Source: a bacterium
GTDB taxonomy: Bacteria > Latescibacterota > Latescibacteria > Latescibacterales > Latescibacteraceae
Reading direction: 5' to 3'
Assembly (NCBI GenBank): GCA_021372535.1
Contig: JAJFUH010000112.1
Location: 1,034 to 65,033 of the forward strand
Length of the DNA stretch: 64,000 nucleotides
A program made the translations under genes and the position numbers. This document shows positions 21,272-58,021 of this stretch, in pieces; position 1 is the stretch's first letter; each line of letters opens with the position of its first letter. The notes beneath the pieces were generated by a model. It saw nothing but the letters and a program-made list of their open reading frames with translations, searched no databases and had not been told where the DNA came from.

Positions 21272-23362
21272 TTATACGGGTTGTTTTTCCTTGAGAACGG
21301 CCTTACGGCTGCATTTGATTTTTCCCTGGTCATCAATACCGATAACTTTAACTTCGACTACATCTCCAAGGTTAACGATATCTTCGACTTTTTTAACCCG
21401 CTTTTCATCAAGCTCCGAGATATGGACAAGACCTTCCTTTCCGGGAAGGATTTCGACAAAGGCACCAAAAGTAGCGATCCTCTTGACCGTTCCTTTATAG
21501 TTCTTGCCTATTTCCGGATCCTCGACAATTGCAAAAACCATGTCGTATGCAGCCTGACCCGCAGCCATATCGACAGCGGCGATAATTACCGTGCCGTCAT
21601 CTTCGATATTGATCGTTGCGCCGGTCTGCTCCTGGATGCCTTTGATAATTTTGCCTCCGGGTCCGATTACCGCGCCGATCTTATCGACTTTGATTTTCAT
21701 GGTAATGATGCTCGGAGCATATTTTGAAAGACTTTCACGCGGTGCTGAAATCGTCTCGTTCATGATTTTCAGAATATGCTCACGGCCGTCTCGTGCCTGT
21801 GCGAGGGCTTTCGACATGATCTCTGTGGTTATACCGTCGATTTTTATATCCATCTGTATTCCGGTAATACCCACGGAGGTTCCTGCAACCTTGAAATCCA
21901 TATCGCCGAGATGGTCTTCATCCCCGAGAATGTCGGACAATACCACATACCTGTCACCATCGGATATCAGACCCATTGCAATGCCCGCAACAGCGGTTTT
22001 TACCGGTACACCGGCATCCATGAGACATAATGACCCCGAACATACCGTAGCCATGGACGATGATCCGTTTGATTCGAGAATATCGGATACGATCCGTATG
22101 GTGTACGGAAATATCTCTTCCTGTGGAATAACCGGAGCAATCGATGTTTCGGCAAGATGACCGTGCCCGGTCTCACGGCGCGAGGTGCCGCGCATCTGCT
22201 TGACCTCGCCGGTACTGAACGGCAGGAAATTGTAATCGAGCATATAGCTCTTGTAACTGGTTCCTTCAAGATCGTCGATCATTCTTTCATCGAGCTTCGT
22301 GCCCAATGTCAGCACACCGAGAGATTGGGTCTGTCCGCGGGTAAACAGCGCTGAACCGTGTGAGCGGGGTAATACGCCGACTTCGCATGTAATGGGGCGA
22401 ATTTCCGTATATGAGCGTCCATCAAGACGAATCTGGTCATCAAGTATCATGGAACGCATCAACTGTTTTTCGATTTCGCCGAACGCAAGTTTAAGGAGCA
22501 ATTCGCTTTCAGGATATTTCTCGCTGAAGTGCTCCAGCACTTTTTCCTTCAGTTTATCGAGCGCGTTATTACGTTCCGATCTCTCTTTCATTCTGGTTAT
22601 GGTTCGGAATTCTTCGAGAAATTCGTTTTTCATATCGGCGATCATTTCTTCTGTCGGAGCAACCGCCGTATAGTCCATGACAGGAGCGGAAATACCCTCG
22701 ATAAATTCGCGCTGAAGGTCGCAAATCTCTTTTATATACTTCTTTGAAAACTCAATTGCCCCGGCCAGGACTTCTTCGGTAACTTCGAAACAACTGCCTT
22801 CAACCATGAGAATATCGTTATCGGAACCCGCAACAACGATGTTCAGGTCACTTTCCTCAAGCTGCGTATAAGTCGGATTTACGATGTATTCGTTTCCAAT
22901 ATGACCGACATGGACCGCGCCGAGTATCTTCTGAAGCGGTACAGGCGACAGCATGCAGGAGGCAGAAGCTCCAATCAGCCCCAGAACATCGATTTCATTC
23001 TCCTGGTCTGATGACAGCACGGTGACAATAATCTGGATTTCATTGCAGAAACCCTTGGGGAAAAGAGGCCTCAGCGGTCGATCGATCTGACGGGCGCTCA
23101 GAATTTCATTGGTGTTCGGCCGTCCCTCGCGGCGGAAGAAATTTCCGGGAATTTTACCTATGGCATAGGATTTTTCCCTGTATTCCACGGTGAGCGGTAA
23201 AAAATCTTTGTCGCCGCTCGGTTTTTTGTCAACGCATACCGTCGCCAGCAGCATTGACTCCCCATAAGTAACCAGAACAGCGCCGTCTGCCTGTTTGGCT
23301 AAACGTCCTGTTTCCAGTCCGAGGATGTTGTTTCCTATTTGCTTTGTCGTTTTTCTGTACAT
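21272..23362 (-). CDS. pnp: Polynucleotide phosphorylase
   Basis: 696 aa with two RNase PH domains, a KH region (GPGGKIIKGIQEQTG) and an S1 domain (GTVKRIATFGAFVEI). Confidence 0.92.
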   Translation of the reverse strand: MYRKTTKQIGNNILGLETGRLAKQADGAVLVTYGESMLLATVCVDKKPSGDKDFLPLTVEYREKSYAIGKIPGNFFRREGRPNTNEILSARQIDRPLRPLFPKGFCNEIQIIVTVLSSDQENEIDVLGLIGASASCMLSPVPLQKILGAVHVGHIGNEYIVNPTYTQLEESDLNIVVAGSDNDILMVEGSCFEVTEEVLAGAIEFSKKYIKEICDLQREFIEGISAPVMDYTAVAPTEEMIADMKNEFLEEFRTITRMKERSERNNALDKLKEKVLEHFSEKYPESELLLKLAFGEIEKQLMRSMILDDQIRLDGRSYTEIRPITCEVGVLPRSHGSALFTRGQTQSLGVLTLGTKLDERMIDDLEGTSYKSYMLDYNFLPFSTGEVKQMRGTSRRETGHGHLAETSIAPVIPQEEIFPYTIRIVSDILESNGSSSMATVCSGSLCLMDAGVPVKTAVAGIAMGLISDGDRYVVLSDILGDEDHLGDMDFKVAGTSVGITGIQMDIKIDGITTEIMSKALAQARDGREHILKIMNETISAPRESLSKYAPSIITMKIKVDKIGAVIGPGGKIIKGIQEQTGATINIEDDGTVIIAAVDMAAGQAAYDMVFAIVEDPEIGKNYKGTVKRIATFGAFVEILPGKEGLVHISELDEKRVKKVEDIVNLGDVVEVKVIGIDDQGKIKCSRKAVLKEKQPV

Positions 23363-29977: not shown

Positions 29978-31030
29978 TCAGCGTTTTTTCAGCTTTTTTA
30001 TATTGTCAATAATTTCTTTTATAGACCCGGCGCTCAGTTTAAAGACAATGCCGCGGATACCCTGTATTGCGGGAATTTCCATCGTTTCATCGGGATTTTC
30101 GGAATAGACGAGAACCGGTATGCGGACACGATACACGAATTGCTGTATTAATTCATTTTTTTTATCGTAATTCTGTTTCTCACGGGAAACGTATTTAACA
30201 AGTGCATAATCCGCTTCATCATGAATTATATAATTATCGGTGGAATCGAACGTTTCTGTATACCCGATCAGCATTCCCGGGCCGGCAACCGTACGATATC
30301 TGTCGGGCGATATATCCGAAGTATCGATGTGAATTCCGTCCGCATCGAGCATTAACGCGCAATCGAGACGATCGCATATCAGTACCGGGATGTTATTTTC
30401 TTTACAGAGTACCACGAGGGGTGACGCATGCTCCATAAATACTCCGTCACTGGAGTTATTGTCGCTGTATGCTATGATATCCACGCCTGCATCAATCGTT
30501 GCCAATGCGCATTCAGCCGCGTCATTATCATATAGAGCATCGTGGTCAATAACGACAAATACTTTAAGATTGTCGTTATTGAATACACGGATTTTATGGA
30601 TATGGATTGCGAAGGTCTGTTCGATGTCATACATGCGGAACCGGATGGTTTTAAAGTGATGAGACAGGTGCGGGAAAAGAAGTTTGCTGTACTCCTCGAG
30701 CGTTCGGAGCGCCTCCTCAGTCCTGCCGGCATTTGCCTTCACGATGGAAAGGATATCGTCGCGCGTGCGTTCCGACCGGGTTTCTCCGCTCCGTAAAACA
30801 TCTGAGTCCGACCCGCGGGATGCAAGGAGAAGGCTGTCGAGGCTCTTTTCGGATTTTACCACCTGGGCGAGTTCGTGCCGTATATCCTTGACGGCTCGTG
30901 TCAATGCCTCATCGTCGAACAGCATACGGGCGGTATCTTCAAGCACTCGTATGCCTTCCGCAGCCCGGTTAAGGCTGGCATCGATCAGGCGCAGTATGCT
31001 TTTTTGCAAAGGTTTCATGGCCTGTTTCAA
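29978..31030 (-). CDS. Thiamine-phosphate synthase (ThiE)-like TIM-barrel protein with an N-terminal extension of about 140 aa
   Basis: The C-terminal half carries ThiE blocks (ICDRLDCALMLDADGIHIDTSD resembles [22 protein letters not shown]; also GPGMLIGYT). The N-terminal domain is unassigned. Confidence 0.5.
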   Translation of the reverse strand: MKQAMKPLQKSILRLIDASLNRAAEGIRVLEDTARMLFDDEALTRAVKDIRHELAQVVKSEKSLDSLLLASRGSDSDVLRSGETRSERTRDDILSIVKANAGRTEEALRTLEEYSKLLFPHLSHHFKTIRFRMYDIEQTFAIHIHKIRVFNNDNLKVFVVIDHDALYDNDAAECALATIDAGVDIIAYSDNNSSDGVFMEHASPLVVLCKENNIPVLICDRLDCALMLDADGIHIDTSDISPDRYRTVAGPGMLIGYTETFDSTDNYIIHDEADYALVKYVSREKQNYDKKNELIQQFVYRVRIPVLVYSENPDETMEIPAIQGIRGIVFKLSAGSIKEIIDNIKKLKKR

Positions 31031-31099
31031 TCGGGTAATTTGGAGGGATTTTCCTGTTTCAGAAGTTAAAAAAAGCTCCCGGGTGAAGGAGCTTATGAT

Positions 31100-31321
31100 T
31101 CATTCGTTTGAAAGGTCTTTGTAATTGAGTTTCACATGACCTTCGCCCTGCTCCTGAACGATTTTAACTATCCACCCCTTTACTTCTTCACCGTTGATTT
31201 TAATTACCTTCGGTTTTTTTTCAAGCACTTTTGTTTTCGGATTCAGTCCAGAACATTTGCCTTTGATATCACGGCAAAAAATCCACTCTGTTCCCGGGTC
31301 GGTATTCTTTTGAGACATCAT
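31100..31321 (-). CDS. Small hypothetical protein (73 aa)
   Basis: ORF co-directional with and immediately downstream of the DUF2229 gene. No family was recognised. Confidence 0.35.
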   Translation of the reverse strand: MMSQKNTDPGTEWIFCRDIKGKCSGLNPKTKVLEKKPKVIKINGEEVKGWIVKIVQEQGEGHVKLNYKDLSNE

Positions 31322-31375
31322 GACACCCCATATATAAAGTATCTTGTTGTGTAACAGAGAAATAATAAGGACATA

Positions 31376-32656
31376 TTAACGGTTTTCGAAAAACCTGTTG
31401 TAACGTCTTTCCACCTTCTTTCTGCTCATATATCCTTTTACCAGTTCCATATAAATGCCGATATCCCTGTCCATGTCGACGTTCACGCCATCATAATAGA
31501 ATACCCTGCAGGGGATATTGTTGTGATCCTTTGAGAAGGACGGATAAACCGCTTCGGTAACAATGCCGTTCATACAGGAAAAGGGGCTGATATCGACAAT
31601 TCCGTCAACGCCCTTTGCATAATAATACCCTGATTTCCCTATACTTATCGCCATCTCGCCAAGAGCCCCCGAAGGCGGGAGATAGGATTCCGCCAGATTC
31701 ATCACTTCCGAAACATCCGATGGCTCCTCATATCCGACGAAATCATCATGGAAAAGTTCGAGAAGTTTATGTTCATCCTTTTTCATCACACTCTTTTTTA
31801 TCTGGACAAGCGCCATATCGACCGAAAACCGTTTGTTCTGTTTTATCAGATTATCCATACGGGTCCAGTCAGTATAGAATACCCATTCACTGAGGTCGGC
31901 GATCCATGTCTCGGCGCCGTTTTCTTCAAGTTTTCTGATCATGTTGTCATTGGCAAACCTGTTGTGACGGCAGTATATTTCGCCGACTATGGCCAGAAGC
32001 GGCTTCCCCTTTTTATAATCGGCGTCGATTGCCCTGAATCTGTCTCTTGCCCTGACGAGAGTTTCCTTTACCAGCGCGACAGAACGGCTGTACGACAAAT
32101 CGGTTCTCTCCAGCGCCTTTTCCTGTTCCACAAGCGATCGTTCGTAGACATCATCGGCAGTTCCTTTGGTTTTTTCATACGGTCTTGTCTTAAAAAGCAT
32201 TTTCCGCAGAATATCCGAGGCAACCACCGCTATCCAGGCTTTCTTGAAAAATGTAATACTCCCGATGCCGCCATATCCATTTGAGGAAGTTGGAGATAAA
32301 ACGATGACATCGTTCAGGTTGAGGTCTGCCAATACTTTTTCAAGCAGATGACAGTACTGGCCGAAACGGCAGGGACCATTGGCAGTCAGCATCATGAATG
32401 CCGTTTTTTTAGGATCGAATCCTTCCGCTTCAGTAATTTTTAAAAAGTCGCCGAGTGTTATCTTTTCGGGGAAACATTCTTCACCCGATGAATACATCGC
32501 TCCGAGTTCGAGGGTCCGTGCATCGGAAGGCGGGGTGATACGGGCTTCGATTCCCTGTGAGCGGAAAACGGCGGCAAGCAGTCTGGCGCCTGCCTGTGTC
32601 ATCGGGGGAATATAGACTGTTCTTCCCTTGAGTGTCTGCGCGCCATCGACTTTCAT
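31376..32656 (-). CDS. DUF2229-type protein (the conserved partner of CoA-substrate-specific enzyme activase)
   Basis: The start was chosen at MKVDGAQTLKG, giving an ATGA overlap with the activase stop. It has a Cys-rich region (GPCRFGQYCH...EIYCRHNRF). Pairing with the upstream gene matches the known fused-protein architecture. Confidence 0.6.
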   Translation of the reverse strand: MKVDGAQTLKGRTVYIPPMTQAGARLLAAVFRSQGIEARITPPSDARTLELGAMYSSGEECFPEKITLGDFLKITEAEGFDPKKTAFMMLTANGPCRFGQYCHLLEKVLADLNLNDVIVLSPTSSNGYGGIGSITFFKKAWIAVVASDILRKMLFKTRPYEKTKGTADDVYERSLVEQEKALERTDLSYSRSVALVKETLVRARDRFRAIDADYKKGKPLLAIVGEIYCRHNRFANDNMIRKLEENGAETWIADLSEWVFYTDWTRMDNLIKQNKRFSVDMALVQIKKSVMKKDEHKLLELFHDDFVGYEEPSDVSEVMNLAESYLPPSGALGEMAISIGKSGYYYAKGVDGIVDISPFSCMNGIVTEAVYPSFSKDHNNIPCRVFYYDGVNVDMDRDIGIYMELVKGYMSRKKVERRYNRFFENR

Positions 32657-35600
32657 GTTTTTGTTCCCTCCCAGGTGCTGAGAAAGCCTTTGGAATCGAG
32701 ATAGGCCTCGCACCGTGTCATCATCCCGGCATCATTGGAATGGCCGTCGAACTGGAGCACCAGATATGGACGTCCCAGCGCCTTCCTGATATACTGCTTG
32801 ATAAATGAATCCGGACCGCATTTGAAGTTGGTGATATAGATTATATCGAACTGCTTTTCCTGCGAAAGCTTGATTGCCGTCTGTATAATCTTTTTACCGT
32901 AATTCCAGTACATGTTCCGGTGATATCCGGAAATATCGGTTCCCTCGAAATCGAGGAAATCCATGGGAATGACATTAATCCCGTATATTCCCGCGAGTTT
33001 GGCGGCGACAGAGAGATTAATCGCCCGGTCATAAATGTTATACGGTCGCCCGACCAGTACGATAGCTTTTTCTCCGGCTGTCTTTACCTGTTCGACCGCA
33101 TGACGTCCCGCTTTTTTGAGGCTGCTCCTGAATTCCTGTTGCGCTTTGACCGCCTTATCGAATGCCCGTTCGGAAACAGCCCGTGATATGCCGTACTTTT
33201 TGAAATACTCCGTCAGCTCATTCCTGACCATCTTATCGCCGTCGCGGAAATGGAGGGTCGGCTTGAGGATTTTATCACGGTGCGGATGAAAAACCGGAGC
33301 ATGTTCGGCCACAAACGGGAGTGTCATCCCCCAGACACAGACAAAGGATTCATATTCGGGGGTTTCCGTTTCGGCATTGATGATATTCGGGAGCCAGACA
33401 TAATCCACACCTTTATCAAAAAGATGCCGTATATGCCCATGCGCGACAATCAGGGGATAACACGGTTCGGCCACAACGCTTTCTATGCCCATGTTTGAAA
33501 TGGTTGTATTTGTCGCATCCGAAAGAACCGTGCAGAAGCCGCATTCGGAAAGATAGACGTTGTAGAAGGGCAGCCTGTCATACGTATACATCGTCAGGGG
33601 TATGCCGACCTTGGGGCCGATCATTCCATTTTCAATATAACTGCCGAACAGCAGTTCCTCGCGTTTTTTATAGAGATCCTCGATTACCGCCGACTTCGAG
33701 ACTTTTTTACGTTTCCTGTAGCGTTCGGAGCACTTGTCACCCCAGTAGGTTTTTTCTCCGTCCACCGTGAATTCCTGCACGGTGCAGAAATTACTGCATC
33801 CCTTGCAGGTAAACTCACGTAATTCAAAGTGGACTTTGGTCAGATCGAATCCCTTGAATGTCGAGTCGAGGTTGATCGCTTCCATTTTACGTTTTGCAAG
33901 CAGGGCCGCCCCTATTGCGCCCATCACGCCGTTATGGGGAGGCACGATGATCTCTTTTCCGGTGACCCGAGCAAAAGCAGCGGCCACAGCATCGTTGTAT
34001 GCCGTTCCGCCCTGGAAGAATATGGTGTTGCCGATTTTCCTGTCCCGCACCACCCTGTTGAGGTAGTTATAGACCACCGAATAGGCCAGACCGGCGATTA
34101 AATCCGCCTTTGGCGCTCCGCGCTGGAGGTATGAATAGAGGTCTCTGCCCATGAAAACCGTGCATCGCTCACCGAGCCGTATCGGGTGTTCCGAGGAAAG
34201 CGCGATTCTCGCGAACTCGTTGATAATGCTGATGCTGAGGTCCTCTGCCTGTTCTTCGAGAAACGATCCGGTTCCCGCGGCGCATGCATCGTTCATGGTG
34301 AAATCGACCACGATGCCGTCTTCGATGGATATGTATTTCGAGTCCTGGCCCCCGATTTCAAATATGGTATCGACTTCTTTCCCGAGCATTTTTCTGCTGA
34401 TATGGAGAGCGCCGGTCTTGTGAGCGGTTATCTCGTCATTGATCGTGTCGGCGCCGATGAGAATACCGATGAGCTCACGGCCCGACCCGGTTGTGGCGAC
34501 GCCTTTTATTTGTATCCGGTCGCCGATTTCACGGCCGATTTCATTGAGGCCTTCGCTGACAACCTCGATGGGACGGGCTTTTGTCTGGGTATAGATTTCC
34601 TTGATGACATTGCCATGAGCATCGATTACAACGAGATTGGTACTGACCGAACCGATATCGACGCCAAGGTATGCGGGAATGGGTTCCTTCGTATCAGGGA
34701 AAGTAAAGGGTATTACGTGTTCGCGGAGTAATCTGACATGATCGAGGGTCAGTTTATCATATGAAGGGAATACGGAACTCTTGGTTTGAGTCCTCGCAGA
34801 CTGAATCATCACCGGCGCCTGGTCGAGCGACTTGATCGCGCATCCGAGGGCTCCGAGCCAGTTCATGGTCTGCGGAGTATATATATCGTTATCGTCAAGG
34901 TCGAAAATCTGCCGTATCGACTGGAGCATCCCCGAATTCATAGCCACACCGCCGATAAACAGTACCGGCGGCGTTACTTTCTTGCTGCGGCAGATTACGC
35001 TCTTGAAATTACGTGAAACGGCATTGCAGAGACCCTTGAGCACTTCATCGGGCTGATACCCGCGCTGCTGGGCGTGTATCATGTCCGATTTTGCAAAAAC
35101 CGAGCACCTTCCCGCAATCTGAGCGGCTTTGGATGCCTTTTCCACAACCGTGCCGATTTCCTCTATGCGGAACTTGAGCCTCGATGCCTGCTGGTCTACA
35201 AACGCTCCCGTTCCCGCCGCACAGTCGCCGTTGTTGCCGTAATCGATAATGTTGAGAGTACCGTTGGAGGTATCTTTCCCTAGAAGGATATACCGTGATG
35301 TTTCTCCCCCCATTTCGAAAATGGTCCGGACATCCGGGTGGAAATGGTTCACAGCTTCGACAATGGCGGCAAATTCATTGATAACGGGGACATTGTAATA
35401 TGTTCCCGCAAGCTTGCCGCCTGAGCCGGTTACCGTGAGATGCAGTTCGCCGCCGTCCAGAAATTCCATGATGGAATCAAGAATAGTCTGGGCCGCAACA
35501 AGGGGCTGTCCCTTGATCCGCTGGTATCGTGACAGAACGACTGCAAACGCTGCATTATCCTGTTCCGTGTCGAAGGAGAAAAACTCTTTGTGAGACGCCA

Positions 35601-35691
35601 TTTTCCGTAATACGGCTTTATCCTCTTTATTCACGATAACCGCAGCTTTTATACTTACCGAACCGATATCGATGCCTATTCCGACCTTCAT
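32653..35691 (-). CDS. CoA-substrate-specific enzyme activase: two tandem BadF/BadG/BcrA/BcrD (HgdC-like) ATPase domains plus an HgdB/HgdD-like dehydratase-component domain
   Basis: 1012 aa. There are two ASKHA N-terminal motifs (GIGIDIGSVSIKAAV and YLGVDIGSVSTNLVVI). Cys clusters are typical of the dehydratase component (CKGCSNFCTV, CYPLIVAHGH). Confidence 0.7.
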   Translation of the reverse strand: MKVGIGIDIGSVSIKAAVIVNKEDKAVLRKMASHKEFFSFDTEQDNAAFAVVLSRYQRIKGQPLVAAQTILDSIMEFLDGGELHLTVTGSGGKLAGTYYNVPVINEFAAIVEAVNHFHPDVRTIFEMGGETSRYILLGKDTSNGTLNIIDYGNNGDCAAGTGAFVDQQASRLKFRIEEIGTVVEKASKAAQIAGRCSVFAKSDMIHAQQRGYQPDEVLKGLCNAVSRNFKSVICRSKKVTPPVLFIGGVAMNSGMLQSIRQIFDLDDNDIYTPQTMNWLGALGCAIKSLDQAPVMIQSARTQTKSSVFPSYDKLTLDHVRLLREHVIPFTFPDTKEPIPAYLGVDIGSVSTNLVVIDAHGNVIKEIYTQTKARPIEVVSEGLNEIGREIGDRIQIKGVATTGSGRELIGILIGADTINDEITAHKTGALHISRKMLGKEVDTIFEIGGQDSKYISIEDGIVVDFTMNDACAAGTGSFLEEQAEDLSISIINEFARIALSSEHPIRLGERCTVFMGRDLYSYLQRGAPKADLIAGLAYSVVYNYLNRVVRDRKIGNTIFFQGGTAYNDAVAAAFARVTGKEIIVPPHNGVMGAIGAALLAKRKMEAINLDSTFKGFDLTKVHFELREFTCKGCSNFCTVQEFTVDGEKTYWGDKCSERYRKRKKVSKSAVIEDLYKKREELLFGSYIENGMIGPKVGIPLTMYTYDRLPFYNVYLSECGFCTVLSDATNTTISNMGIESVVAEPCYPLIVAHGHIRHLFDKGVDYVWLPNIINAETETPEYESFVCVWGMTLPFVAEHAPVFHPHRDKILKPTLHFRDGDKMVRNELTEYFKKYGISRAVSERAFDKAVKAQQEFRSSLKKAGRHAVEQVKTAGEKAIVLVGRPYNIYDRAINLSVAAKLAGIYGINVIPMDFLDFEGTDISGYHRNMYWNYGKKIIQTAIKLSQEKQFDIIYITNFKCGPDSFIKQYIRKALGRPYLVLQFDGHSNDAGMMTRCEAYLDSKGFLSTWEGTKT

Positions 35692-36292: not shown

Positions 36293-36293
36293 G

Positions 36294-39116: not shown

Positions 39117-40892
39117 TTACACGATTTTTTCCGTATCGACAACCATCACGATACGGTTGGTATCCTGCAGAGGAGCATAACCCGCGACCGGAGGCTGTTC
39201 CGTCGCGGATGTGATGGTGCCGTGCGGGAGTACTCTGATACCGATAACACTATCGACACGGGTGCCGGTGATGCGATTCTTCCCCGTGAGCACGATTATG
39301 CGCTCTTTCAGCGGTTCCCGTGGGCGTTTCGCGGCGCGTGATCCCGGTTTTTTCGCGATATCGACAAGGTGAATGACTGTCTCGCCGTACCGGAGGACGT
39401 TTGCGGGAAGCTTGTCCGTGCCCTGCATGCCCGGCAGAAGCGACGAATGAAGAATCTCCTTTACCGTATCAGCCGGAAAGCCGTAATACACATCGTCAAC
39501 CACGGCGATAACGTATCTCCTGTCATCCCGGGATTCACGGGTGTCAGCCTTCTCTGCTGTTCCCGCAGCAATATCACTGAAATACTTCGTGTTGACACAG
39601 TACAGCGGTTCCGTACCGCCGTCAATTTCAACCGCGTGCCCCAAAATCGGCTCTTTTCCGGAGGATTGTGCGTTCTCCGATACCGTCGCGGAAAGAAACC
39701 GTGAGACGGAGCTCACGAGCAGTCCGGTTCTGGTGTTGGCCCCTTTCAGGACGAGGATACGGGATTGAGGAGTAATGGCGAGTTTCCCGGAACCGAGGAG
39801 CACTCCCATATCAAAAACAGGGAGATTTTTGTCCGTTATATGAGATATTCCCCCGGGATAAGCCGTTTCAGACGAAACCGGGGATATGCCCGAAGAATCA
39901 GTAATCGAATCGAGTTCGTCCGCAGCGATTCCATATGATTCTTTTCCGGCCTGAAACATGAGTATTTTCATCGTCCCGGTTTGAGGGAAAGAGGGACGTG
40001 TAACCGCAGTTTTCGGCGCCGGCGCGGGTTTTTCGCGTTCCCGTGGCTTTTCTTTTTCTGCCGGAACAGCGATAATTTCAGGTTTTACGGTTTTTTCCGC
40101 TATAATTTCCTGTGCAGGGGATTTCTTTTCGATACGGGTTTCGGGTACTGTTTGTTTCACGGCGGCGGGAGTTATTCCGGCCGTGCCCGACATTTCCTTG
40201 ATGAATGCATCGAAAGTTTCGCGCGGAGTACGCTCGATGTTCAGCAGAGCGGCAGGCTGATCCTTGATCATTTTTCCGACAGCATTGACGAATACACGGC
40301 GCTGGAACAGGAGCGATTCCCCCTGAAGCGGAAGAGCCACAAAGACATCGCCTGATTCAGCGGGCGCCGTATCGAGACCGAATCCGAAAATGTTTCTGCC
40401 GAATGTTCCTAGTGCATGGGCGGCAGATCGCCCATCCACCGGTTCAGTGTAGAATATCCAGAGATGATATTCACCCTTGCCGCCTTCGGTTACCTCGATG
40501 AGGGACGGAATATTTTTCCCCTGTAATTCCCCGGCAAACTGTTTTGCCTTGGTAAACGGATGATCGAGCTGGTCGGAAAGAATGAATTTGACCACACTCC
40601 ACGAGGTTTTACCGGATTTGGAAAGCGGATTGACTCTGACCGTGATATCTCCGGCGCAATGCTGAGCGACAGCCTCGTCCAGGGAGATTTCAGTCCGCTC
40701 GAAACGGCCTTCTCCCTCGATCTCGAACGTATCGACCGTCCGGCAGAACACATCAATCATGATATCCGCAGGAATGGAGGATTCGGATGCGCCCTTGTGC
40801 TTCTTTTGGGGCTTTTTTTCGATTATTGTCCGGGCTAAATCCGACCGCTTCGTAAAGTAGTCATCCCTGCTTTTAAACCGTCCCGGGGTCAT
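39117..40892 (-). CDS. Multidomain protein: an unassigned N-terminal domain of about 250 aa, a Pro/Lys-rich linker, and two tandem CheW-like domains (ParP-like candidate)
   Basis: CheW-like block 1 is MKILMFQAGKESYGIAADELDSI...VFDMGVLLG. Block 2 is RYVIAVVDDVYYGFPADTVKEILHS...HLVDIAKK. It is translationally coupled (4-nt overlap) to the upstream ParA-like ATPase. Confidence 0.55.
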   Translation of the reverse strand: MTPGRFKSRDDYFTKRSDLARTIIEKKPQKKHKGASESSIPADIMIDVFCRTVDTFEIEGEGRFERTEISLDEAVAQHCAGDITVRVNPLSKSGKTSWSVVKFILSDQLDHPFTKAKQFAGELQGKNIPSLIEVTEGGKGEYHLWIFYTEPVDGRSAAHALGTFGRNIFGFGLDTAPAESGDVFVALPLQGESLLFQRRVFVNAVGKMIKDQPAALLNIERTPRETFDAFIKEMSGTAGITPAAVKQTVPETRIEKKSPAQEIIAEKTVKPEIIAVPAEKEKPREREKPAPAPKTAVTRPSFPQTGTMKILMFQAGKESYGIAADELDSITDSSGISPVSSETAYPGGISHITDKNLPVFDMGVLLGSGKLAITPQSRILVLKGANTRTGLLVSSVSRFLSATVSENAQSSGKEPILGHAVEIDGGTEPLYCVNTKYFSDIAAGTAEKADTRESRDDRRYVIAVVDDVYYGFPADTVKEILHSSLLPGMQGTDKLPANVLRYGETVIHLVDIAKKPGSRAAKRPREPLKERIIVLTGKNRITGTRVDSVIGIRVLPHGTITSATEQPPVAGYAPLQDTNRIVMVVDTEKIV

Positions 40893-41635
40893 ACAAGCTC
40901 CTCGACAAGATTCCGGAAATCCTGCGCGCCGATACTGTCAGGATCGTATTCCATGATACTCTGACCCATTGCGGAGCTTTCACCTATTTTGACGTTCCGC
41001 CGTATCTTCGTTTTTGCAAGCGTGTCACCGAAAAAGGAGTGAAGCTGTTTCACCATTTCGCCCGCAAGCACCGTATTGGAATACATGGTCGGTATCACAC
41101 GGCCGATTTGAAGCCGTGCATTGTAATTATCACGAACCGCATCGATGGTTTCGAGCAGCTTGTTGGTTCCGATGACGCTCAGGTGTTCGCAGGCCACTGT
41201 TATATAGACCTCGTCGCTTGCCACAAGGCCGTTCACCGTGAGCGCGCCGAGGGAAGGCGGGCAATCGATGAGAATGTGGTTAAACCGTTCGGTCACGGGT
41301 TCAAGCGCTTTTTTCAGTCGGCGTTCATATCCGATAGCCGCAAAAATCTCGCGTTCGATGGAAGCGAGCAGGATATTGGATGGCACGAGCCAAACATTTT
41401 TGTGAATAGGCGCGATAACATCCTCGATCACCGCGGTCCCTCTGATGACATCATATACGGTCCGCTCGAACGAATCGGGATCGCTTCCGCACCATGATGT
41501 CAGGTTACCCTGGGGATCGAGGTCTATAAGGAGAACAGAACGGCCTTTCCGGGCAAGCTCGAATCCTATATTAACCGTACAGGTGGTTTTACCTACTCCA
41601 CCTTTCTGGTTGGCAAATACTGCAATTCTTTTCAT
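40889..41635 (-). CDS. ParA/MinD-family ATPase (ParC-like candidate)
   Basis: The deviant Walker A is ANQKGGVGKTTCTVN. DLDPQGN follows. The start was chosen at MKRIAVF. It is immediately downstream of pilC. Confidence 0.75.
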   Translation of the reverse strand: MKRIAVFANQKGGVGKTTCTVNIGFELARKGRSVLLIDLDPQGNLTSWCGSDPDSFERTVYDVIRGTAVIEDVIAPIHKNVWLVPSNILLASIEREIFAAIGYERRLKKALEPVTERFNHILIDCPPSLGALTVNGLVASDEVYITVACEHLSVIGTNKLLETIDAVRDNYNARLQIGRVIPTMYSNTVLAGEMVKQLHSFFGDTLAKTKIRRNVKIGESSAMGQSIMEYDPDSIGAQDFRNLVEELV

Positions 41636-41790
41636 GCAACCTCCGCGCCGGTATCTGTCATCCGGCAATATCGCACAATATATCGGACAAATGAAAGCCG
41701 TCAGATATGCTGAGCGTTCATAACGACATTACCCACATGTATGGGATGAAAACAGTATGAATGGCCGGCGTCCGAACAGCAATTTCATCA

Positions 41791-42999
41791 TTAACCCTGT
41801 ACCGCATCGATCATACTGAACATCGGCATGTACATAGCGATGAGCACGCCGCCCATAATAACCGCAAGAATGACGATGATTATAGGTTCCATGAGACCTG
41901 TCAGAGTCTCGACCGCCGCATTCACTTCTTCGTCATAAAAGTCGGCAATTTTGTTGAGCATCTGATCCAGACCACCCGATTCCTCCCCCACTGCAACCAT
42001 CTGGATAACCATGGGCGGGAAAACATTGGTTTCCTTCATCGGCTCGGTAATGGTTTTTCCTTCGGAAATCGCCGTAATCATGCTCTGCAATGCCCGGCGA
42101 ATAACCATGTTCGAGGCTGTTTTTGCGGTAATTTCGAGGGCTTCGAGAATTGATACACCACTCGAGAGAAGGGTTCCGAGTGTCCGTGAAAACTGGGCAA
42201 CTGCGCTTTTTTTAGCCAGGTCTCCGAGGGCAGGGATTTTCAGTACCATTTTATCGGTATTGAAACGGCCTTTCGGGGTTTTCCGGTATTTGATGAACGC
42301 TGTGAAAGCGGCGACTATTACCGCGACAATGGGAAGTATTTTTTTCGGTGTTTTCATGAAATTTGACATATTGACAACTATCTGGGTAGGTGCGGGAAGT
42401 TTCGCGCCTGCATCGAGGAACATCTTCGTAAATACCGGGATGACAAAAATCAGAAGTGCTGCTACGGCGCCGACTGCTACAATCGAAATAATGATGGGAT
42501 ACATCATTGCGCCTTTGATTTTACGGTTGAGAGCCGCCGCTTTTTCGAGAAACGAAGCGAGACGCAGCAGGATTGTATCGAGGATACCGCCGATTTCGCC
42601 GGCAGCGATCATATTGACAAATAATTCGGGAAATACTTTCGGATGTTTTGCCAGGCTGTCGGCAAGTGAATTCCCTGACTCGACGCTTTCGGTTACGGAA
42701 ATGAGAACCTTTTTAAAGTTCGGGTTTTCCGACTGTTCGGAAAGAATGTTCAGACACTGTATAAGCGGAAGACCCGCGGAGATCATCGCGGAAAACTGAC
42801 GGGCAAAATTGGTGATGTCCTCGGCTTGTACTCCGGTGCCGATCTGTAAACTGAATCCACCTGATTTTTTCTTGACTTTTGTAACGATAATGCCCTTTGA
42901 CCGGAGTAATTTGTAGACTTCCTCCTGGCTGGCGGCGGAAATTTCCCCCTTTACTCCTTTACCGCCTCTTGCTTTACCTTCGTATAAGAAATCCGGCAT
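41791..42999 (-). CDS. pilC: Type IV pilus assembly inner-membrane platform protein (GspF/PilC family)
   Basis: 402 aa with two repeated GspF domains, each carrying the conserved GxxLxxxL..P motif. It has three TM segments. Confidence 0.8.
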   Translation of the reverse strand: MPDFLYEGKARGGKGVKGEISAASQEEVYKLLRSKGIIVTKVKKKSGGFSLQIGTGVQAEDITNFARQFSAMISAGLPLIQCLNILSEQSENPNFKKVLISVTESVESGNSLADSLAKHPKVFPELFVNMIAAGEIGGILDTILLRLASFLEKAAALNRKIKGAMMYPIIISIVAVGAVAALLIFVIPVFTKMFLDAGAKLPAPTQIVVNMSNFMKTPKKILPIVAVIVAAFTAFIKYRKTPKGRFNTDKMVLKIPALGDLAKKSAVAQFSRTLGTLLSSGVSILEALEITAKTASNMVIRRALQSMITAISEGKTITEPMKETNVFPPMVIQMVAVGEESGGLDQMLNKIADFYDEEVNAAVETLTGLMEPIIIVILAVIMGGVLIAMYMPMFSMIDAVQG

Positions 43000-43051
43000 T
43001 TCGGTTTATCCCGCCCGGTGAGTGTTGTCGTTCCGATCCGATTTTCCCTGT

Positions 43052-44725
43052 TTATGCGGTCATTGTCTCACGAATCACTTCTTCATAATCGACTATTCCC
43101 TGTTTCATCTTGAGAATCGCATCCATACGAAGCGTAAGCATACCGTCCTTGATAGCCTGATCCCTGATGTCGGCTGTCGAACCGCCATCCAGAACAACCT
43201 GTCTGAGCGTGGGGGTCATCAGCATGACTTCATAGGCGCCGATTCTTCCTTTTTTGCCGGTCCCGTTGCATTTCGGACAGCCGACAGGTCCGTATATGAC
43301 GTCATCTTTAGTTATATTCAGTTCTTTGTGAAGCTCTTCGGGCACTTTAATGGGTTTTTTACATTCCTTGCAGAGACGGCGTAAAAGCCGCTGCGCCTGA
43401 ATGAGGTTTACCGCCGATGCTATCTGGAATGGCGCTATTCCCATATCGATCATACGGGTAACCGTGCTCGGCGCGTCGTTGGTATGGAGAGTGGAAAGCA
43501 CAAGGTGTCCGGTCAGGGCTGCTTTCACTGCGATACTGCCGGTATCGATATCACGAATCTCGCCGATCATGATGATATTGGGGTCCTGGCGGAGAAACGC
43601 CTTGAGCGCCGCGGCAAAAGTCATGCCCACCTCGGTACGGACAAGAACCTGATTGATACCGTAAAGATTATATTCCACAGGGTCTTCCGCTGTCATAATG
43701 TTGACACCAATCTGATTGATATGGCTCAGCGCCGAATAAAGCGTGGTGGTTTTTCCCGAACCGGTCGGCCCCGTTACCAGAACCATACCGTACGGCGATT
43801 CGATAGCATGCAAAAAATCGTGTAATGCTTTCTCAGTGAAACCGAATGTTGTGAGGTCAAGGGTAAGATTGCCCTGGTCGAGAATACGCATGACGATCTT
43901 TTCACCAAACAGCGTCGGGAGTGTCGATACACGGAACTCGACAGATTTTGAGGGCATACGGATTTTAATACGGCCGTCCTGGGGAACGCGGCGCTCGGAT
44001 ATATCGAGATCGCTCATAATCTTGACTCTCGATATAACCGCGGCTTTGAGTTTATTGGGAAGTGGAGGCATTTCCTGCAAAACACCATCGAGACGGAATC
44101 TGACACGGACCTCTTTTTCGAAAGGCTCGATGTGGATGTCCGATACACCCTTCTTGACCGCATCGACGAGGATGGAGTTTACGAGACGTACCAACGGCGC
44201 GTCGTCGGCATGGACACCCTCGACCTCCTCCTCGGTTTCCTCGACGACCTCGAGATCCGAGCCCTCGAAATCACTGAGAATGCTCGACATTTCCTCGGTT
44301 GTTTTATATATCTTGTCAATAATAGTACGAATCGAGCTTTCGGTTGCTATAAACGGTTCAATTTTATATCCGGTGATGAGCTTTATCGAATCAAGGGCGA
44401 ACATATTGGTGGGATCGGATATTGCCACCTTGAGTGTTTTCCCGTCACGGGAAAAGGCAATGACCTGAAATTTGATCGCTACTTCAGCGGGTATGATATT
44501 GACAACATCCTCGTCGATCTCATCGAGCTTCAGCTCGACGATTTTTATGCCCAGCTGCTTGGCAAGCGCGCTGTAAAGATCATGTTCGTTAACATATCCG
44601 AGCTCAATCAGGTTACCGCCAAGGTTTCCGCCCTTTTCCCGCTGCCGCTTGAGTGCATCCTCAAGCTGCTGCACCGATATTTTCTTGTCCTTGACAAGAA
44701 GATTGCCGATTCGCGCCTCAGCCAT
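43052..44725 (-). CDS. pilB: Type IV pilus assembly ATPase (GspE/PilB family)
   Basis: An N-terminal GSPII_E_N-like region, the Walker A VTGPTGSGKTTTL, Asp/His boxes, and the C-terminal tetracysteine motif CPKCNGTGKKGRIGAYE. Confidence 0.85.
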   Translation of the reverse strand: MAEARIGNLLVKDKKISVQQLEDALKRQREKGGNLGGNLIELGYVNEHDLYSALAKQLGIKIVELKLDEIDEDVVNIIPAEVAIKFQVIAFSRDGKTLKVAISDPTNMFALDSIKLITGYKIEPFIATESSIRTIIDKIYKTTEEMSSILSDFEGSDLEVVEETEEEVEGVHADDAPLVRLVNSILVDAVKKGVSDIHIEPFEKEVRVRFRLDGVLQEMPPLPNKLKAAVISRVKIMSDLDISERRVPQDGRIKIRMPSKSVEFRVSTLPTLFGEKIVMRILDQGNLTLDLTTFGFTEKALHDFLHAIESPYGMVLVTGPTGSGKTTTLYSALSHINQIGVNIMTAEDPVEYNLYGINQVLVRTEVGMTFAAALKAFLRQDPNIIMIGEIRDIDTGSIAVKAALTGHLVLSTLHTNDAPSTVTRMIDMGIAPFQIASAVNLIQAQRLLRRLCKECKKPIKVPEELHKELNITKDDVIYGPVGCPKCNGTGKKGRIGAYEVMLMTPTLRQVVLDGGSTADIRDQAIKDGMLTLRMDAILKMKQGIVDYEEVIRETMTA

Positions 44726-45021: not shown

Positions 45022-45900
45022 TCAGACAAGTACCTCAAACAGTTTATGCCTTCCGGTGAATCCTTTTAAATCGAAAAAGCCGATACACCGGGTTTTTATC
45101 TGGGTATCGTTCGAAATCATTTTTTGCACCGTTTCCGCGATGAAGATACGGTCCGATCTTGGCATGTCGTCCTTTTTAATACCCATAACCGTTTGATGCA
45201 TATCGTCGATTTTAACCGATTCGACGCGAAAAGCCATATCGACAGCCATACCCCGGCGGTCACCATCGGGAAGCTTGAAAGTCTCGCCGTAATTGATACC
45301 GATCCGGACACGGATTCCGGCGGATGATTTCTGTTCCTTCAGGTCGGTTAAAAAGCCGATAGCCAGATTGACCGCGGGTTTAACCTTGCTGAAAACGAGC
45401 ATGAAACCGTCACCGGTATTTTTTATGAATTCCGCGGGATTTTCCTTGAGATTTTTTTTCAGACAGAGCAGCAGAGTATTTTTCACTTTACTGGCGATAC
45501 GGTCACCGACAAGCTGGGCGATATTCGAGGAACCGACCATATCGATAACGACGATTGCTTCGGGTGTTGTTTCCATCGCGGAATCGGGTTCGGCAAACCG
45601 CTCTTCGGTGCGCCGCGACACTTTCAGAAACGTATGCCCGAGTCTGAAAATATCTCCCGGATTGACCACTACGGGAGCGGTGACCGGATCGCCAAGAAGA
45701 AACGTGCCGTTCTTGCTTTTACTGTCCTGAAGGGTAATCACCCCGTCTTCAGCTACCTCCAGCACGGCGTGGGTACCCGATATATATTTATCATCGGGTA
45801 AAACAATATTTGATTCGGAGGAACGGCCGATGCTGTATGTGCCGGGTATCAGGGTTGTCCGTGTACCCTCTTTTTCGCCATTCAGAATAAATAAATACAT
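45022..45900 (-). CDS. FHA-domain protein fused to a class III adenylyl/guanylyl cyclase catalytic domain
   Basis: The FHA block is YSIGRSSESNIVLPDDKYISGTHAVLEV...NGTFL. The cyclase blocks are VVIDMVGSS, NTGDGFMLVF and RVRIGINYGE. Confidence 0.7.
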   Translation of the reverse strand: MYLFILNGEKEGTRTTLIPGTYSIGRSSESNIVLPDDKYISGTHAVLEVAEDGVITLQDSKSKNGTFLLGDPVTAPVVVNPGDIFRLGHTFLKVSRRTEERFAEPDSAMETTPEAIVVIDMVGSSNIAQLVGDRIASKVKNTLLLCLKKNLKENPAEFIKNTGDGFMLVFSKVKPAVNLAIGFLTDLKEQKSSAGIRVRIGINYGETFKLPDGDRRGMAVDMAFRVESVKIDDMHQTVMGIKKDDMPRSDRIFIAETVQKMISNDTQIKTRCIGFFDLKGFTGRHKLFEVLV

Positions 45901-57840: not shown

Positions 57841-58021
57841 TACAGCCCCCTGAGTTTCACCGTATTAAATTTTCAAAAAGTATCACTCCGGTGTTGAAAC
57901 AGTGACATCGTTTGATCTCATGCCGAACATGTCTCGGAATCAGTTCCGAAGTGTGGCACCGGCTGGTATATGCCGGGTACCAAACTGTAGTAAATATCGA
58001 TAATACAGCATGATGGTTATA

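What the first reader, a model, noticed from the sequence alone, without database searches (positions are those of the whole stretch)
31100..35691. Split CoA-enzyme-activase / DUF2229 system of unknown substrate, with a trailing small ORF
A 1012-aa protein with two HgdC/BcrAD-type ATPase domains plus an HgdB-like dehydratase-component domain is translationally coupled to a Cys-rich DUF2229 protein. A 73-aa ORF follows. This family resembles 2-hydroxyacyl-CoA dehydratase and benzoyl-CoA reductase activator systems (ATP-driven electron injection), but its substrate is unknown. Here it is embedded upstream of a thiE-like gene and the nusA-infB operon on the same strand.
Basis: established knowledge. 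Interest (0 to 1): 0.55.

Follow-up and report, generated by a model that had tools for sequence, protein, structure and literature searches.

The report
Split anaerobic ether-lipid synthase genes
These two adjacent genes from an uncultured Latescibacterota bacterium are a split copy of the oxygen-sensitive enzyme that anaerobic bacteria use to turn ester-linked membrane lipids into ether lipids, so the family's substrate has been known since 2021-2022 and this is a new but fairly ordinary member.

Summary
The ORFs exist as described, all on the minus strand. They are a 1012-aa protein "A" (32653-35691), a 426-aa protein "R" (31376-32656, ATGA stop/start overlap) and a conserved 72/73-aa ORF "S" (31100-31318/31321) followed by a terminator hairpin.

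DUF2229 lies in the large protein. R is not Cys-rich and matches no Pfam model above threshold. PF06050 hits neither protein.

R and the C-terminal 400 residues of A are paralogues. Both have the fold of the catalytic subunits of 2-hydroxyacyl-CoA dehydratase, benzoyl-CoA reductase and the double-cubane cluster protein (DCCP). Each keeps three invariant Cys.

A+R is colinear with ~1400-aa fused proteins, and the gene break falls in their variable linker.

This architecture is the published PlsA/PlsR plasmalogen synthase (Clostridium perfringens, 2021) and its variant Ger, glycerol ester reductase (Thermotoga maritima, 2022). "Substrate unknown" is therefore out of date.

Independent support: in related Phycisphaerae, Gemmatimonadales and Acidobacteriota genomes a tetraether lipid synthase (Tes) gene lies next to or within about 5 kb of R.

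Whether the product is a vinyl ether or a saturated alkyl ether cannot be told from sequence. I lean towards alkyl.

S is a real lineage-specific gene of unknown role. Verdict: new member of a known kind, modest interest.

The parts
32653..35691 (-). Gene A (PlsA-like), 1012 aa: two activase ATPase domains, a Cys4 motif and reductase module Red1 (contains DUF2229)
   Evidence: ORF. Pfam and NCBIfam hits. 100% identical to an NCBI MAG protein named 'acyl-CoA dehydratase activase [bacterium]'. 27% identity over residues 5-962 of the fused 1475-aa Listeria monocytogenes protein, E 9e-106.
34822..35685 (-). Activase ATPase domain 1 (about residues 3-290), with DIGSVSIK and CAAGTG motifs, Cys157 and Cys196
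   Evidence: PF01869 matches in 2 stretches. PDB MbdP matches residues 66-287. Cys157 and Cys196 are invariant in 67/67 fused homologues.
33895..34668 (-). Activase ATPase domain 2 (residues 342-599), with Cys470 and Cys510
   Evidence: PF01869 best stretch 342-599. PDB MbdQ, HgdC (1hux) and HadI (4eht), E 1e-27 to 2.5e-30. Cys470 and Cys510 are invariant in 67/67.
33730..33807 (-). C629-x2-C632-x3-C636 ... C654 motif between the activase and Red1; an extra metal (Fe-S or Zn) site
   Evidence: The Cys are conserved in 66-67 of 67 fused homologues and are present in Listeria. This region of the model has low confidence (pLDDT 52-58), so the kind of site is unresolved.
32656..33864 (-). Red1 module (residues 610-1012); includes DUF2229 at residues 694-912 (nt 32956-33612) and Cys744, Cys785, Cys958
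   Evidence: PF09989, 180.8 bits. Model pLDDT 79, pTM 0.80. Best PDB folds are the double-cubane cluster protein, 7yyl and 6eno, probability 1.0, E 6e-6 to 1.4e-5. The three Cys are invariant in 67/67.
31376..32656 (-). Gene R (PlsR-equivalent, Red2), 426 aa, with Cys61, Cys96, Cys361 and the signature GPCRFGQY
31100..31318 (-). Gene S, a 72-aa conserved small protein of unknown function (73 aa if started at 31321)
   Evidence: 47 homologues, 40 of them 72 aa, 60-88% identical; the named ones are all Latescibacterota. Lies directly downstream of R in all 7 related loci examined: L001, L002, L003, L085, L086 and the unnamed 374-kb JGI contig. Differences from relatives are concentrated at third codon positions. 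No Pfam or PDB match.
31073..31094 (-). Intrinsic-terminator-like hairpin (AAGCTCC..GGGAGCTT + TTTTT), which begins 6 nt after the S stop codon (5-nt gap)
   Evidence: and the sequence. A consensus match only; it suggests that A-R-S ends as one transcript before ThiD2-ThiE.

Best explanation
A and R together are a two-gene (split) member of the PlsA/PlsR-Ger family. This is an oxygen-sensitive, ATP-dependent reductase that converts the sn-1 acyl ester of already assembled membrane glycerolipids into an ether.

Proposed mechanism, step by step:
- The two fused activase domains of A form an intramolecular pseudo-dimer holding one bridging [4Fe-4S] cluster (Cys157/196 and Cys470/510).
- That cluster is reduced by ferredoxin or flavodoxin. 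ATP hydrolysis then drives a low-potential electron into the catalytic pair.
- The catalytic pair is Red1 (the C-terminus of A) and R. They are paralogues with the HadB/HadC-BzdN/O-DCCP fold, and each has three invariant Cys for its own Fe-S cluster.
- The ester carbonyl is reduced through a ketyl-type intermediate, protonated and dehydrated to a 1-alk-1'-enyl (vinyl) ether.
- In Ger-type enzymes a further two-electron reduction gives the saturated 1-O-alkyl ether.

I lean towards the alkyl-ether (Ger-like) outcome for this clade, at about 55:30 against a plasmalogen end-product.

Shown here: the gene structure, the domains, the conserved Cys, the folds, the colinearity with fused homologues, and the linkage to Tes in relatives. 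Inferred: the cluster types, the electron path, the lipid substrate and the product.

S is co-located and probably co-transcribed, but its role is unknown.
For: Architecture:
- Two PF01869 domains plus PF09989 in A.
- R aligns to the last ~400 residues of ~1400-aa fused proteins.
- The gene break falls in the variable linker of those proteins, and all 14 conserved Cys are retained.

Published function of this architecture:
- plsA-plsR of C. perfringens, and the single-gene plsA of Enterococcus, Lactococcus and Bifidobacterium, make plasmalogens in E. coli (PMC12838417; PMC9702350).
- T. maritima Tmari_0479 and D. alkenivorans SHJ90043, described as BcrAD-BcrAD-DUF2229 plus further domains, make 1-O-alkyl glycerols in E. 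coli only anaerobically (PMC13159169).

Direct comparison:
- A is 27% identical (E 9e-106) and R 24% identical (E 9e-30), colinearly, to the fused 1475-aa protein of L. monocytogenes. That genus is reported to carry pls orthologues and to make plasmalogens anaerobically.

Fold:
- Red1 matches DCCP.
- Red1 and R align colinearly, and their three Cys pair up.

Genomic context:
- A is adjacent to R in ~70 of 80 genomes across many phyla. In 66 of the 71 loci measured the two genes overlap or lie within 30 nt.
- No other neighbour is conserved. This fits a self-sufficient two-gene module.
- A tetraether lipid synthase Tes gene (NF045702, 479.9 bits against a cut-off of 450; PDB 7tol, E 1e-102) follows R in L006, L007, L009, L016, L025 and L038, and lies nearby in L044, L050 and L082.

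Lean towards alkyl ether:
- The nearest named fused relatives are from Brocadiia and other Planctomycetota. Brocadiia are reported to produce alkyl ethers, and Ca. Kuenenia (an anammox genus, class Brocadiia by my own knowledge) is reported to carry a 'modified plsA'.
- The same split clade occurs in Solibacteraceae and Bryobacterales. Their cultured relative S. usitatus makes saturated mono-, di- and tetraethers, and PlsAR/Ger homologues are the proposed source.
- The two-activase-domain (BB) architecture is the heuristic used for Ger.
Against: - No activity was measured for any member of this split clade.
- Identity to the only named plasmalogen-clade sequences I could fetch is low (24-27%).
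- I could not obtain CPE1194/1195, EF1327 or Tmari_0479, so no direct comparison with a biochemically validated enzyme was made.
- In a crude neighbour-joining tree, without bootstrap, the window clade is separated by a deep branch from the Listeria, Acetoanaerobium, Fusobacterium, Collinsella and Haliovirga sequences.
- The literature states that Ger and PlsA cannot be told apart by sequence.
- The 64-kb window holds no other lipid gene: no Tes-like or rSAM-SPASM hit and nothing lipid-related in the Pfam survey.
- Neither A nor R has a membrane segment, so how the lipid is reached is unexplained.
- The hhalign link between Red1 and R is weak statistically (probability 27%, E 6.6e-4).
Confidence: 0.75

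Rival explanations
1. The pair is a true plasmalogen synthase. It stops at the vinyl ether, exactly like C. perfringens PlsA-PlsR, and Latescibacterota membranes contain plasmalogens.
For: - It has the same two-gene layout as plsA-plsR of C. perfringens and as the split pair of Fusobacterium animalis.
- It is colinear with the Listeria fused protein.
- The plasmalogen is the proposed intermediate even for Ger.
Against: - The window clade is deeply separated from the Firmicutes, Actinobacteria and Fusobacteria sequences and has a different Red2 signature: GPCRFGQY against GGCRATNY, GGCRASNY or GDCRLTHY.
- Its relatives sit next to Tes and occur in lineages known for saturated ethers.
- None of this is decisive.
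Confidence: 0.25
2. One reading: an activase-plus-dehydratase/reductase system acting on an unknown CoA thioester or other soluble substrate, unrelated to lipids.
For: - Databases name it 'acyl-CoA dehydratase activase'.
- The fold is shared with HadBC and BzdNO, which act on CoA esters.
- The window has no lipid genes nearby.
Against: - There is no CoA-transferase, acyl-CoA or hydroxyacid dehydrogenase partner, and no conserved neighbour at all across 80 genomes.
- PF06050 is absent.
- NCBIfam benzoyl-CoA reductase equivalogs score far below their cut-offs: 150 against 578, 114 against 380 and 84 against 313.
- Every member of this exact architecture that has been tested acts on membrane glycerolipids.
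- Relatives are linked to Tes.
Confidence: 0.08
3. A DCCP/DCCP-R-like ATP-dependent reductase of small molecules, with an [8Fe-9S] double-cubane cluster.
For: DCCP is the best Foldseek match for both Red1 and R. The DCCP-R activase 7yyl_E matches A.
Against: - By my own knowledge of the published structures, DCCP is a homodimer whose monomers each supply six Cys to a double cubane. Here two different paralogous modules each keep only three invariant Cys, as in HadB/HadC.
- Sequence identity to DCCP is 11-14%.
Confidence: 0.04

Closest known systems
PlsA-PlsR anaerobic plasmalogen synthase of Clostridium perfringens (CPE1194/CPE1195; UniProt Q8XL48/Q8XL47) and the single-gene PlsA of Enterococcus faecalis (EF1327, Q835P9), Listeria, Lactococcus and Bifidobacterium
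   Same: - A two-gene operon with a large activase-reductase protein followed by a ~400-aa second reductase.
- The same module order as the fused forms, described as Act1-Act2-Red1-Red2 and matched here by colinear alignment to the Listeria fused protein.
- Membership of the BCR/HAD superfamily.
   Different: - Only 24-27% identity to the Listeria representative.
- A different Red2 signature motif and a separate deep branch.
- A different phylum (Latescibacterota).
- An extra conserved 72-aa gene downstream.
- Product unknown.
Ger, glycerol ester reductase ('modified PlsA'): Thermotoga maritima Tmari_0479 (AGL49404) and Desulfatibacillum alkenivorans SHJ90043
   Same: - The conserved core of two PF01869 domains plus PF09989, reported as common to all alkyl-ether producers.
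- The nearest named fused relatives of R are from Brocadiia and other Planctomycetota. Ca. Kuenenia, an anammox bacterium of class Brocadiia, is listed as carrying a 'modified plsA', and Brocadiia are reported to make alkyl ethers.
- Relatives co-occur with Tes, as reported for brGDGT (branched tetraether lipid) producers.
   Different: - Ger is described as one polypeptide with short extra DUF2229 and HGD-D matches in its C-terminal part. Here that part is a separate gene with no PF06050 match at all.
- No direct sequence comparison was possible.
(R)-2-hydroxyacyl-CoA dehydratases with their activators (HadBC + HadI; HgdAB + HgdC)
   Same: - The activase fold and Cys pair (PDB 1hux and 4eht, E ~1e-27).
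- A presumed ketyl-radical chemistry started by ATP-driven electron injection.
   Different: - There the activator is a separate homodimer. Here it is a fused tandem, covalently attached to Red1.
- No PF06050 match, 8-13% identity, no CoA-pathway neighbours.
- A lipid ester is the presumed substrate, not a CoA thioester.
Class I benzoyl-CoA reductases (BcrABCD, BzdNOPQ, MbdONPQ) and the DCCP/DCCP-R system
   Different: - A four-subunit enzyme (BCR), or a homodimer with a 6-Cys double cubane (DCCP).
- NCBIfam equivalog scores are far below their cut-offs.
- Different substrates.

Membership tests
PlsA/PlsR-Ger ether-lipid synthase family | Two tandem BcrAD_BadFG (PF01869) activase domains, each with the cluster-binding Cys pair | tested here: met
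   PF01869 matches in 2 stretches, 223.9 bits. TIGR00241, 260 bits. Cys157/196 and Cys470/510 are invariant in 67/67 fused homologues.
PlsA/PlsR-Ger ether-lipid synthase family | A DUF2229 (PF09989) 'reduction' domain directly after the activases (the conserved BcrAD-BcrAD-DUF2229 core of PMC13159169) | tested here: met
   PF09989 at residues 694-912, 178 bits against a cut-off of 29.4.
PlsA/PlsR-Ger ether-lipid synthase family | A second reductase/dehydratase module (PlsR or the C-terminal third of fused PlsA/Ger), fused or encoded immediately downstream | tested here: met
   R overlaps A by ATGA. It aligns to residues ~1000-1400 of fused proteins and to residues 1005-1357 of the Listeria fused protein. 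The split point is the variable linker.
PlsA/PlsR-Ger ether-lipid synthase family | Significant full-length similarity to a biochemically validated member (CPE1194/1195, EF1327, Tmari_0479 or SHJ90043) | not testable with these tools
   Those sequences could not be fetched: afdb50 was unavailable, and the genome scan returned only the 80 closest MAGs. As a proxy, the Listeria monocytogenes fused gene gave E 9e-106 and 9e-30. The literature reports pls orthologues in Listeria.
PlsA/PlsR-Ger ether-lipid synthase family | Converts an sn-1 acyl ester of a glycerolipid to an alkenyl or alkyl ether under anoxic conditions | not testable with these tools
   This needs expression and lipid analysis. 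The only indirect support is the adjacency of Tes to R in 9 related loci.
2-hydroxyacyl-CoA dehydratase (HgdAB/HadBC with HgdC/HadI) | Catalytic subunits match PF06050 (HGD-D) | tested here: not met
   No PF06050 hit in R or in the C-terminal 403 residues of A at E<=10.
2-hydroxyacyl-CoA dehydratase (HgdAB/HadBC with HgdC/HadI) | Catalytic-subunit fold | tested here: met
2-hydroxyacyl-CoA dehydratase (HgdAB/HadBC with HgdC/HadI) | A separate single-domain activator, and neighbouring CoA-transferase or 2-hydroxyacid dehydrogenase genes | tested here: not met
   The activator is a fused tandem inside A. The neighbours are dCTP deaminase, a DHH phosphoesterase, ThiD2-ThiE and nusA. No neighbour is conserved across 80 genomes.
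Class I benzoyl-CoA reductase | Subunits reach the NCBIfam equivalog cut-offs (TIGR02259, TIGR02261, TIGR03192) | tested here: not met
   150.1 against 578, 83.5 against 312.85 and 113.7 against 380.2 bits.
Double-cubane cluster protein (DCCP) with DCCP-R | Six conserved Cys in one subunit for an [8Fe-9S] cluster (from my own knowledge of the published DCCP structures) | tested here: not met
   Only three invariant Cys in each of Red1 and R. The fold itself is similar.

The most novel reading that the evidence does not exclude
The split A+R clade found here occurs in Latescibacterota, Eisenbacteria, Phycisphaerae, Bryobacterales/Solibacteraceae, Thermoleophilia and Methylomirabilia. It may be the ether-forming enzyme behind environmental branched tetraether (brGDGT-type) and other saturated bacterial ether lipids. 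That would make Latescibacterota an unrecognised source of such lipids. The Latescibacterota-specific 72-aa protein S would then be a new accessory subunit of the enzyme, for example an adaptor that presents the lipid or docks the electron donor.
Probability: 0.15. Interest if true: 0.6.

Novelty: new member of a known kind. Interest (0 to 1): 0.3.

Why it matters
Practically, it corrects an annotation. 'Acyl-CoA dehydratase activase' plus 'hypothetical protein' should read as a two-gene PlsA/PlsR-Ger-type ether-lipid synthase.

It predicts that this Latescibacterota lineage, which has no cultured member, can make ether-linked membrane lipids under anoxic conditions.

It also flags a pitfall in genome surveys. 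Searches with the fused Ger or PlsA query that score only the large protein see a BcrAD-BcrAD-DUF2229-only hit and conclude that the second reduction domain is missing. That is how Latescibacterota sponge MAGs were read in bioRxiv 10.64898/2026.06.23.733905. In fact the second module is the unannotated gene next door.

The same split clade occurs in Solibacteraceae and lies beside Tes in Phycisphaerae and Acidobacteriota. It is therefore relevant to the open question of who makes brGDGT palaeoclimate biomarkers and with which enzymes. The window itself adds no new mechanism.

Tried and rejected
- I tried several routes to the validated reference sequences (CPE1194/1195, EF1327, Tmari_0479). 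The Jackson 2021 paper is not held. The Sci Adv paper has no supplements held. Cluster look-ups of 30 representatives gave only MAG names. afdb50 was unavailable. The single genome scan kept only the 80 closest loci, all MAGs. The first attempt at that scan, with a 49-sequence alignment, failed for lack of a conserved stretch.\n- The plasmid collection gave usable named proxies from Listeria, Collinsella, Fusobacterium, Haliovirga and Acetoanaerobium.\n- Sequence searches of R and its profile against the PDB found nothing meaningful. Only fold comparison linked it to HadBC, BzdNO and DCCP.\n- I looked for conserved neighbours that might hint at another substrate and found none.\n- I looked for Tes-like or rSAM-SPASM genes in the window and found none. 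The only radical-SAM gene is a small 311-aa one at 14932-15867.\n- No Rfam family, including a TPP riboswitch, was found in 29500-36500.\n- S has no Pfam, NCBIfam or PDB relatives. I considered that it might be a ferredoxin- or rubredoxin-like electron carrier. I rejected this as unsupported, because only one Cys is invariant and a second is about 90% conserved.\n- The exact-sequence look-ups for S (the 73-aa form) and for R in the contig index failed.\n- My automated estimate of the A-to-R spacing over-extends R starts in GC-rich genomes. It should be read only as 'adjacent or overlapping in 66 of 71 loci'.


Full report
OBSERVATION

All features lie on the minus strand.
- The 1012-aa ORF "A" (32653..35691, ATG start) is real.
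- The next ORF is listed mechanically as 445 aa from a GTG. Its plausible start is the ATG at 32656. That ATG overlaps the TGA of the first gene (ATGA) and has GGGAGGGA a few bases upstream. This gives a 426-aa protein "R" (31376..32656).
- A 73-aa ORF "S" follows at 31100..31321. A stem-loop plus T-run lies at 31094..31073 and begins 6 nt after its stop codon.
- Downstream on the same strand are a ThiD2-ThiE fusion, nusA and infB. Upstream are dCTP deaminase, a DHH/DHHA1 phosphoesterase and a xylose-isomerase-like TIM-barrel protein.
- The window is 100% identical, over both proteins, to records from an NCBI metagenome-assembled genome labelled '[bacterium]'. Its closest named relatives are Candidatus Latescibacterota.

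DOMAINS

A has two BcrAD_BadFG/HgdC-type ATPase domains, followed by DUF2229 at residues 694-912. In fact R reaches only a sub-threshold 24.8 bits on DUF2229, and PF06050 hits neither protein even at E<=10. R has 6 Cys in 426 residues, so it is not Cys-rich.

WHAT THE TWO PROTEINS ARE

- An exhaustive HMMER search with R found 2220 representative proteins at E<=0.001. Beyond its own ~400-440-aa clade, R aligns at 32-39% identity (E 1e-50 to 1e-68) with residues ~1000-1400 of ~1400-aa proteins.
- I aligned A+R, joined end to end, with 67 such fused proteins. The gene break falls in their variable linker.
- Fourteen Cys are conserved in 66-67 of the 67 sequences:
  - Cys157/196 and Cys470/510, one pair per ATPase domain, spaced as in the HgdC-type activators;
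  - a C-x2-C-x3-C...C motif (629/632/636/654);
  - Cys744/785/958 in the C-terminal module of A ('Red1');
  - Cys61/96/361 in R.
- R carries the signature GPCRFGQY, found in 111 of 150 representatives.
- A profile-profile comparison of Red1 with R is colinear over 313 columns. The three Cys pair one to one, although the statistics are weak (E 6.6e-4, probability 27%).
- Sequence searches of the PDB see only the activase domains (MbdQ, HgdC, HadI, DCCP-R) and nothing for Red1 or R.
- The predicted structures are confident: R has pLDDT 88 and pTM 0.90; Red1 has pLDDT 79 and pTM 0.80.
- The system is therefore a covalently fused tandem activase plus a HadB/HadC-like pair of paralogous catalytic modules, one fused to the activase and one encoded separately.

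WHAT THE FAMILY DOES

- The BcrAD-BcrAD-DUF2229 + second-reductase architecture is the anaerobic plasmalogen synthase. plsA-plsR (CPE1194/1195) of C. perfringens, and the single-gene plsA of Enterococcus, Lactococcus and Bifidobacterium, confer plasmalogen synthesis on E. coli (PMC12838417; PMC9702350).
- A 'modified PlsA', Ger (T. maritima Tmari_0479 and D. alkenivorans SHJ90043), gives saturated 1-O-alkyl glycerols in E. coli, and only anaerobically. The two-PF01869-plus-PF09989 core is conserved in all alkyl-ether producers examined (PMC13159169).
- The proposed chemistry is two sequential one-electron reductions of the sn-1 ester, then protonation and dehydration (PMC8788747).
- I could not fetch the validated sequences (see 'tried and rejected'). 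The plasmid collection contains chromosome-sized Listeria records that carry the fused 1475-aa gene. A matches its residues 5-962 (27% identity, E 9e-106) and R matches residues 1005-1357 (24%, E 9e-30), in the same order. Listeria is reported to carry pls orthologues and to make plasmalogens anaerobically.

GENOMIC EVIDENCE

- A scan of one genome per species returned 80 loci with R at 45-64% identity. All are MAGs, from Latescibacterota, Eisenbacteria, Nitrospinota, Phycisphaerae, Acidobacteriota (Bryobacterales, Solibacteraceae, Terriglobia), Thermoleophilia, Methylomirabilia, Calditrichia and others.
- A lies immediately upstream of R in about 70 of them. In 66 of the 71 loci measured the two genes overlap or lie within 30 nt.
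- Nothing else is conserved around the pair. This fits a module that is sufficient on its own, as plsA-plsR is in E. coli.
- There is one exception, and it is informative. In Planctomycetota loci (L006, L007, L009, L016, L025, L038) R is followed by a ~630-aa radical-SAM protein. The same protein lies nearby in L044 (Gemmatimonadales), L050 (Acidobacteriota) and L082 (Bryobacteraceae).
- That protein passes NCBIfam's equivalog cut-off for tetraether lipid synthase Tes (479.9 against 450 bits) and matches the solved GDGT-MAS structure 7tol at E 1e-102.
- This ties the split clade to membrane ether-lipid synthesis independently of the homology argument.
- The window itself has no Tes-like or rSAM-SPASM gene and no other recognisable lipid gene.

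VINYL OR ALKYL ETHER?

Two recent papers state that PlsA and Ger cannot be separated by sequence (PMC11868695; PMC13274423). Three observations make me lean towards alkyl, and all are weak.
- In a crude neighbour-joining tree of the R region (about 390 columns, no bootstrap), the window falls in an all-split subclade. That subclade is nested in a large GPCRFGQY group, which includes fused proteins from Brocadiia, other Planctomycetota and Aerophobetes. The Listeria, Acetoanaerobium, Fusobacterium, Collinsella and Haliovirga sequences form a separate deep branch; four of them carry GGCRATNY-, GGCRASNY- or GDCRLTHY-type motifs.
- Brocadiia are reported to make alkyl ethers. Ca. Kuenenia, an anammox bacterium of that class, is reported to carry a 'modified plsA'.
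- Solibacter usitatus makes saturated mono-, di- and tetraethers. PlsAR/Ger homologues are the proposed ether-forming step in that organism (PMC10087280; PMC13023045).
- My estimate is about 55% alkyl, 30% vinyl and 15% something else.

THE SMALL ORF

- S is a real gene. It has 47 homologues, 40 of them 72 aa long, at 60-88% identity. Every named one is from Latescibacterota.
- Its locus tags are consecutive with R in three NCBI MAGs.
- It sits directly after R in all seven related loci examined. The gap to R is 11-101 nt in those loci and 54 nt in the window. ThiD2-ThiE always follows.
- Nucleotide differences pile up at third codon positions, for example 42 against 9 and 8.
- It is basic (pI 9.2) and hydrophilic and has no detectable relatives. 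Its invariant positions include EWIFC, GW.V and His61.
- It is absent from the other phyla that have A-R. It is therefore not part of the core machine, and its role is open.

NOVELTY

This is a new member of a known kind.
- The two-gene split is already known from C. perfringens, and I saw another in Fusobacterium animalis. The tree suggests the split seen here arose separately.
- What is mildly new is the lineage (Latescibacterota), the size and breadth of this split clade, its link to Tes, and the extra small gene.
- A 2026 preprint reports BcrAD-BcrAD-DUF2229-only 'ger' hits in sponge-associated Latescibacterota and reads the missing second reduction domain as a Ger-like trait. The present locus shows that the missing part can simply be the adjacent, unannotated gene.

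LIMITS

- No validated reference sequence was compared directly.
- The tree is crude.
- Cluster types, electron donor, substrate head-group and product are all inferred.
- The terminator and promoter calls are consensus matches only.

Noticed in passing
L006:8292-10196, L009:8276-10159, L025:3030-4937; also L007, L016, L038, L044, L050, L082: A bacterial tetraether lipid synthase Tes homologue (NF045702 above its cut-off; PDB 7tol, E 1e-102) lies directly after the R homologue in Phycisphaerae/Planctomycetota MAGs. In L006, L007 and L009 a 719-aa radical SAM/SPASM protein follows it. In L016 and L038 the order is A-R-Tes.
   Followed up: partly
L006, L009, L011, L025, L042 (upstream of position 7001, or of 1736 in L025): In these loci the R homologue has no A gene directly upstream, unlike about 70 other loci. 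The neighbours are unrelated genes, such as a CCA-adding enzyme, a GFO/IDH oxidoreductase and a glycosyltransferase. The partner activase must be encoded elsewhere or be absent.
   Followed up: partly
bioRxiv 10.64898/2026.06.23.733905 compared with window 31376..32656: The preprint reads BcrAD-BcrAD-DUF2229-only 'ger' hits in Latescibacterota and other sponge MAGs as lacking the second reduction domain. Here that domain is a separate adjacent gene with no Pfam hit, which surveys scoring one protein at a time would miss.
   Followed up: partly
L088:2066-4993 and 4995-6209 (Fusobacterium animalis pSB029A): A split 975-aa + 404-aa pair of the plasmalogen-type clade lies on a 219-kb record. It is a second split, apparently independent of the one in the window.
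   Followed up: partly
window 39117..40892 (-), with 40889..41668 and 41791..44725: A 591-aa protein combines an archaeo-eukaryotic-primase-like domain of the TOTE conflict system (PF22548) with CheW-like domains (PF01584, matched in 2 stretches). It sits beside a ParA/MinD-like ATPase and PilC/PilB-type secretion genes. This is an unusual domain combination.
   Followed up: no
window 47686..50190 (-): An 834-aa protein with an N-terminal zinc ribbon, a Ser/Thr protein kinase domain and a C-terminal FGE-sulfatase domain. An FHA-domain protein and a PP2C phosphatase lie nearby (45022..45900, 46840..47685).
   Followed up: no
window 18001..22000 and 58001..60000: G+C drops to 0.38-0.40 and 0.355 against about 0.50 elsewhere. 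These may be foreign or non-coding islands.
   Followed up: no
window 29978..31100 (-): A ThiD2-ThiE fusion gene with no TPP riboswitch detected ahead of it (Rfam gathering thresholds). It always follows S in related Latescibacterota contigs, so S could in principle belong with it rather than with A-R.
   Followed up: partly
plasmid-collection records NZ_CP030101.1 (2.9 Mb, Listeria) and NZ_CP154629.1 (2.6 Mb, Acetoanaerobium): Chromosome-sized records are filed as plasmids in the plasmid collection. This was useful here as a source of named homologues, but it is a trap for plasmid statistics.
   Followed up: no
window 14270..15867 (+): A small 311-aa radical-SAM protein overlaps the end of a TPR protein gene (14270..14935) by a few bases. 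It is not Tes- or Mss-like by size or similarity.
   Followed up: no
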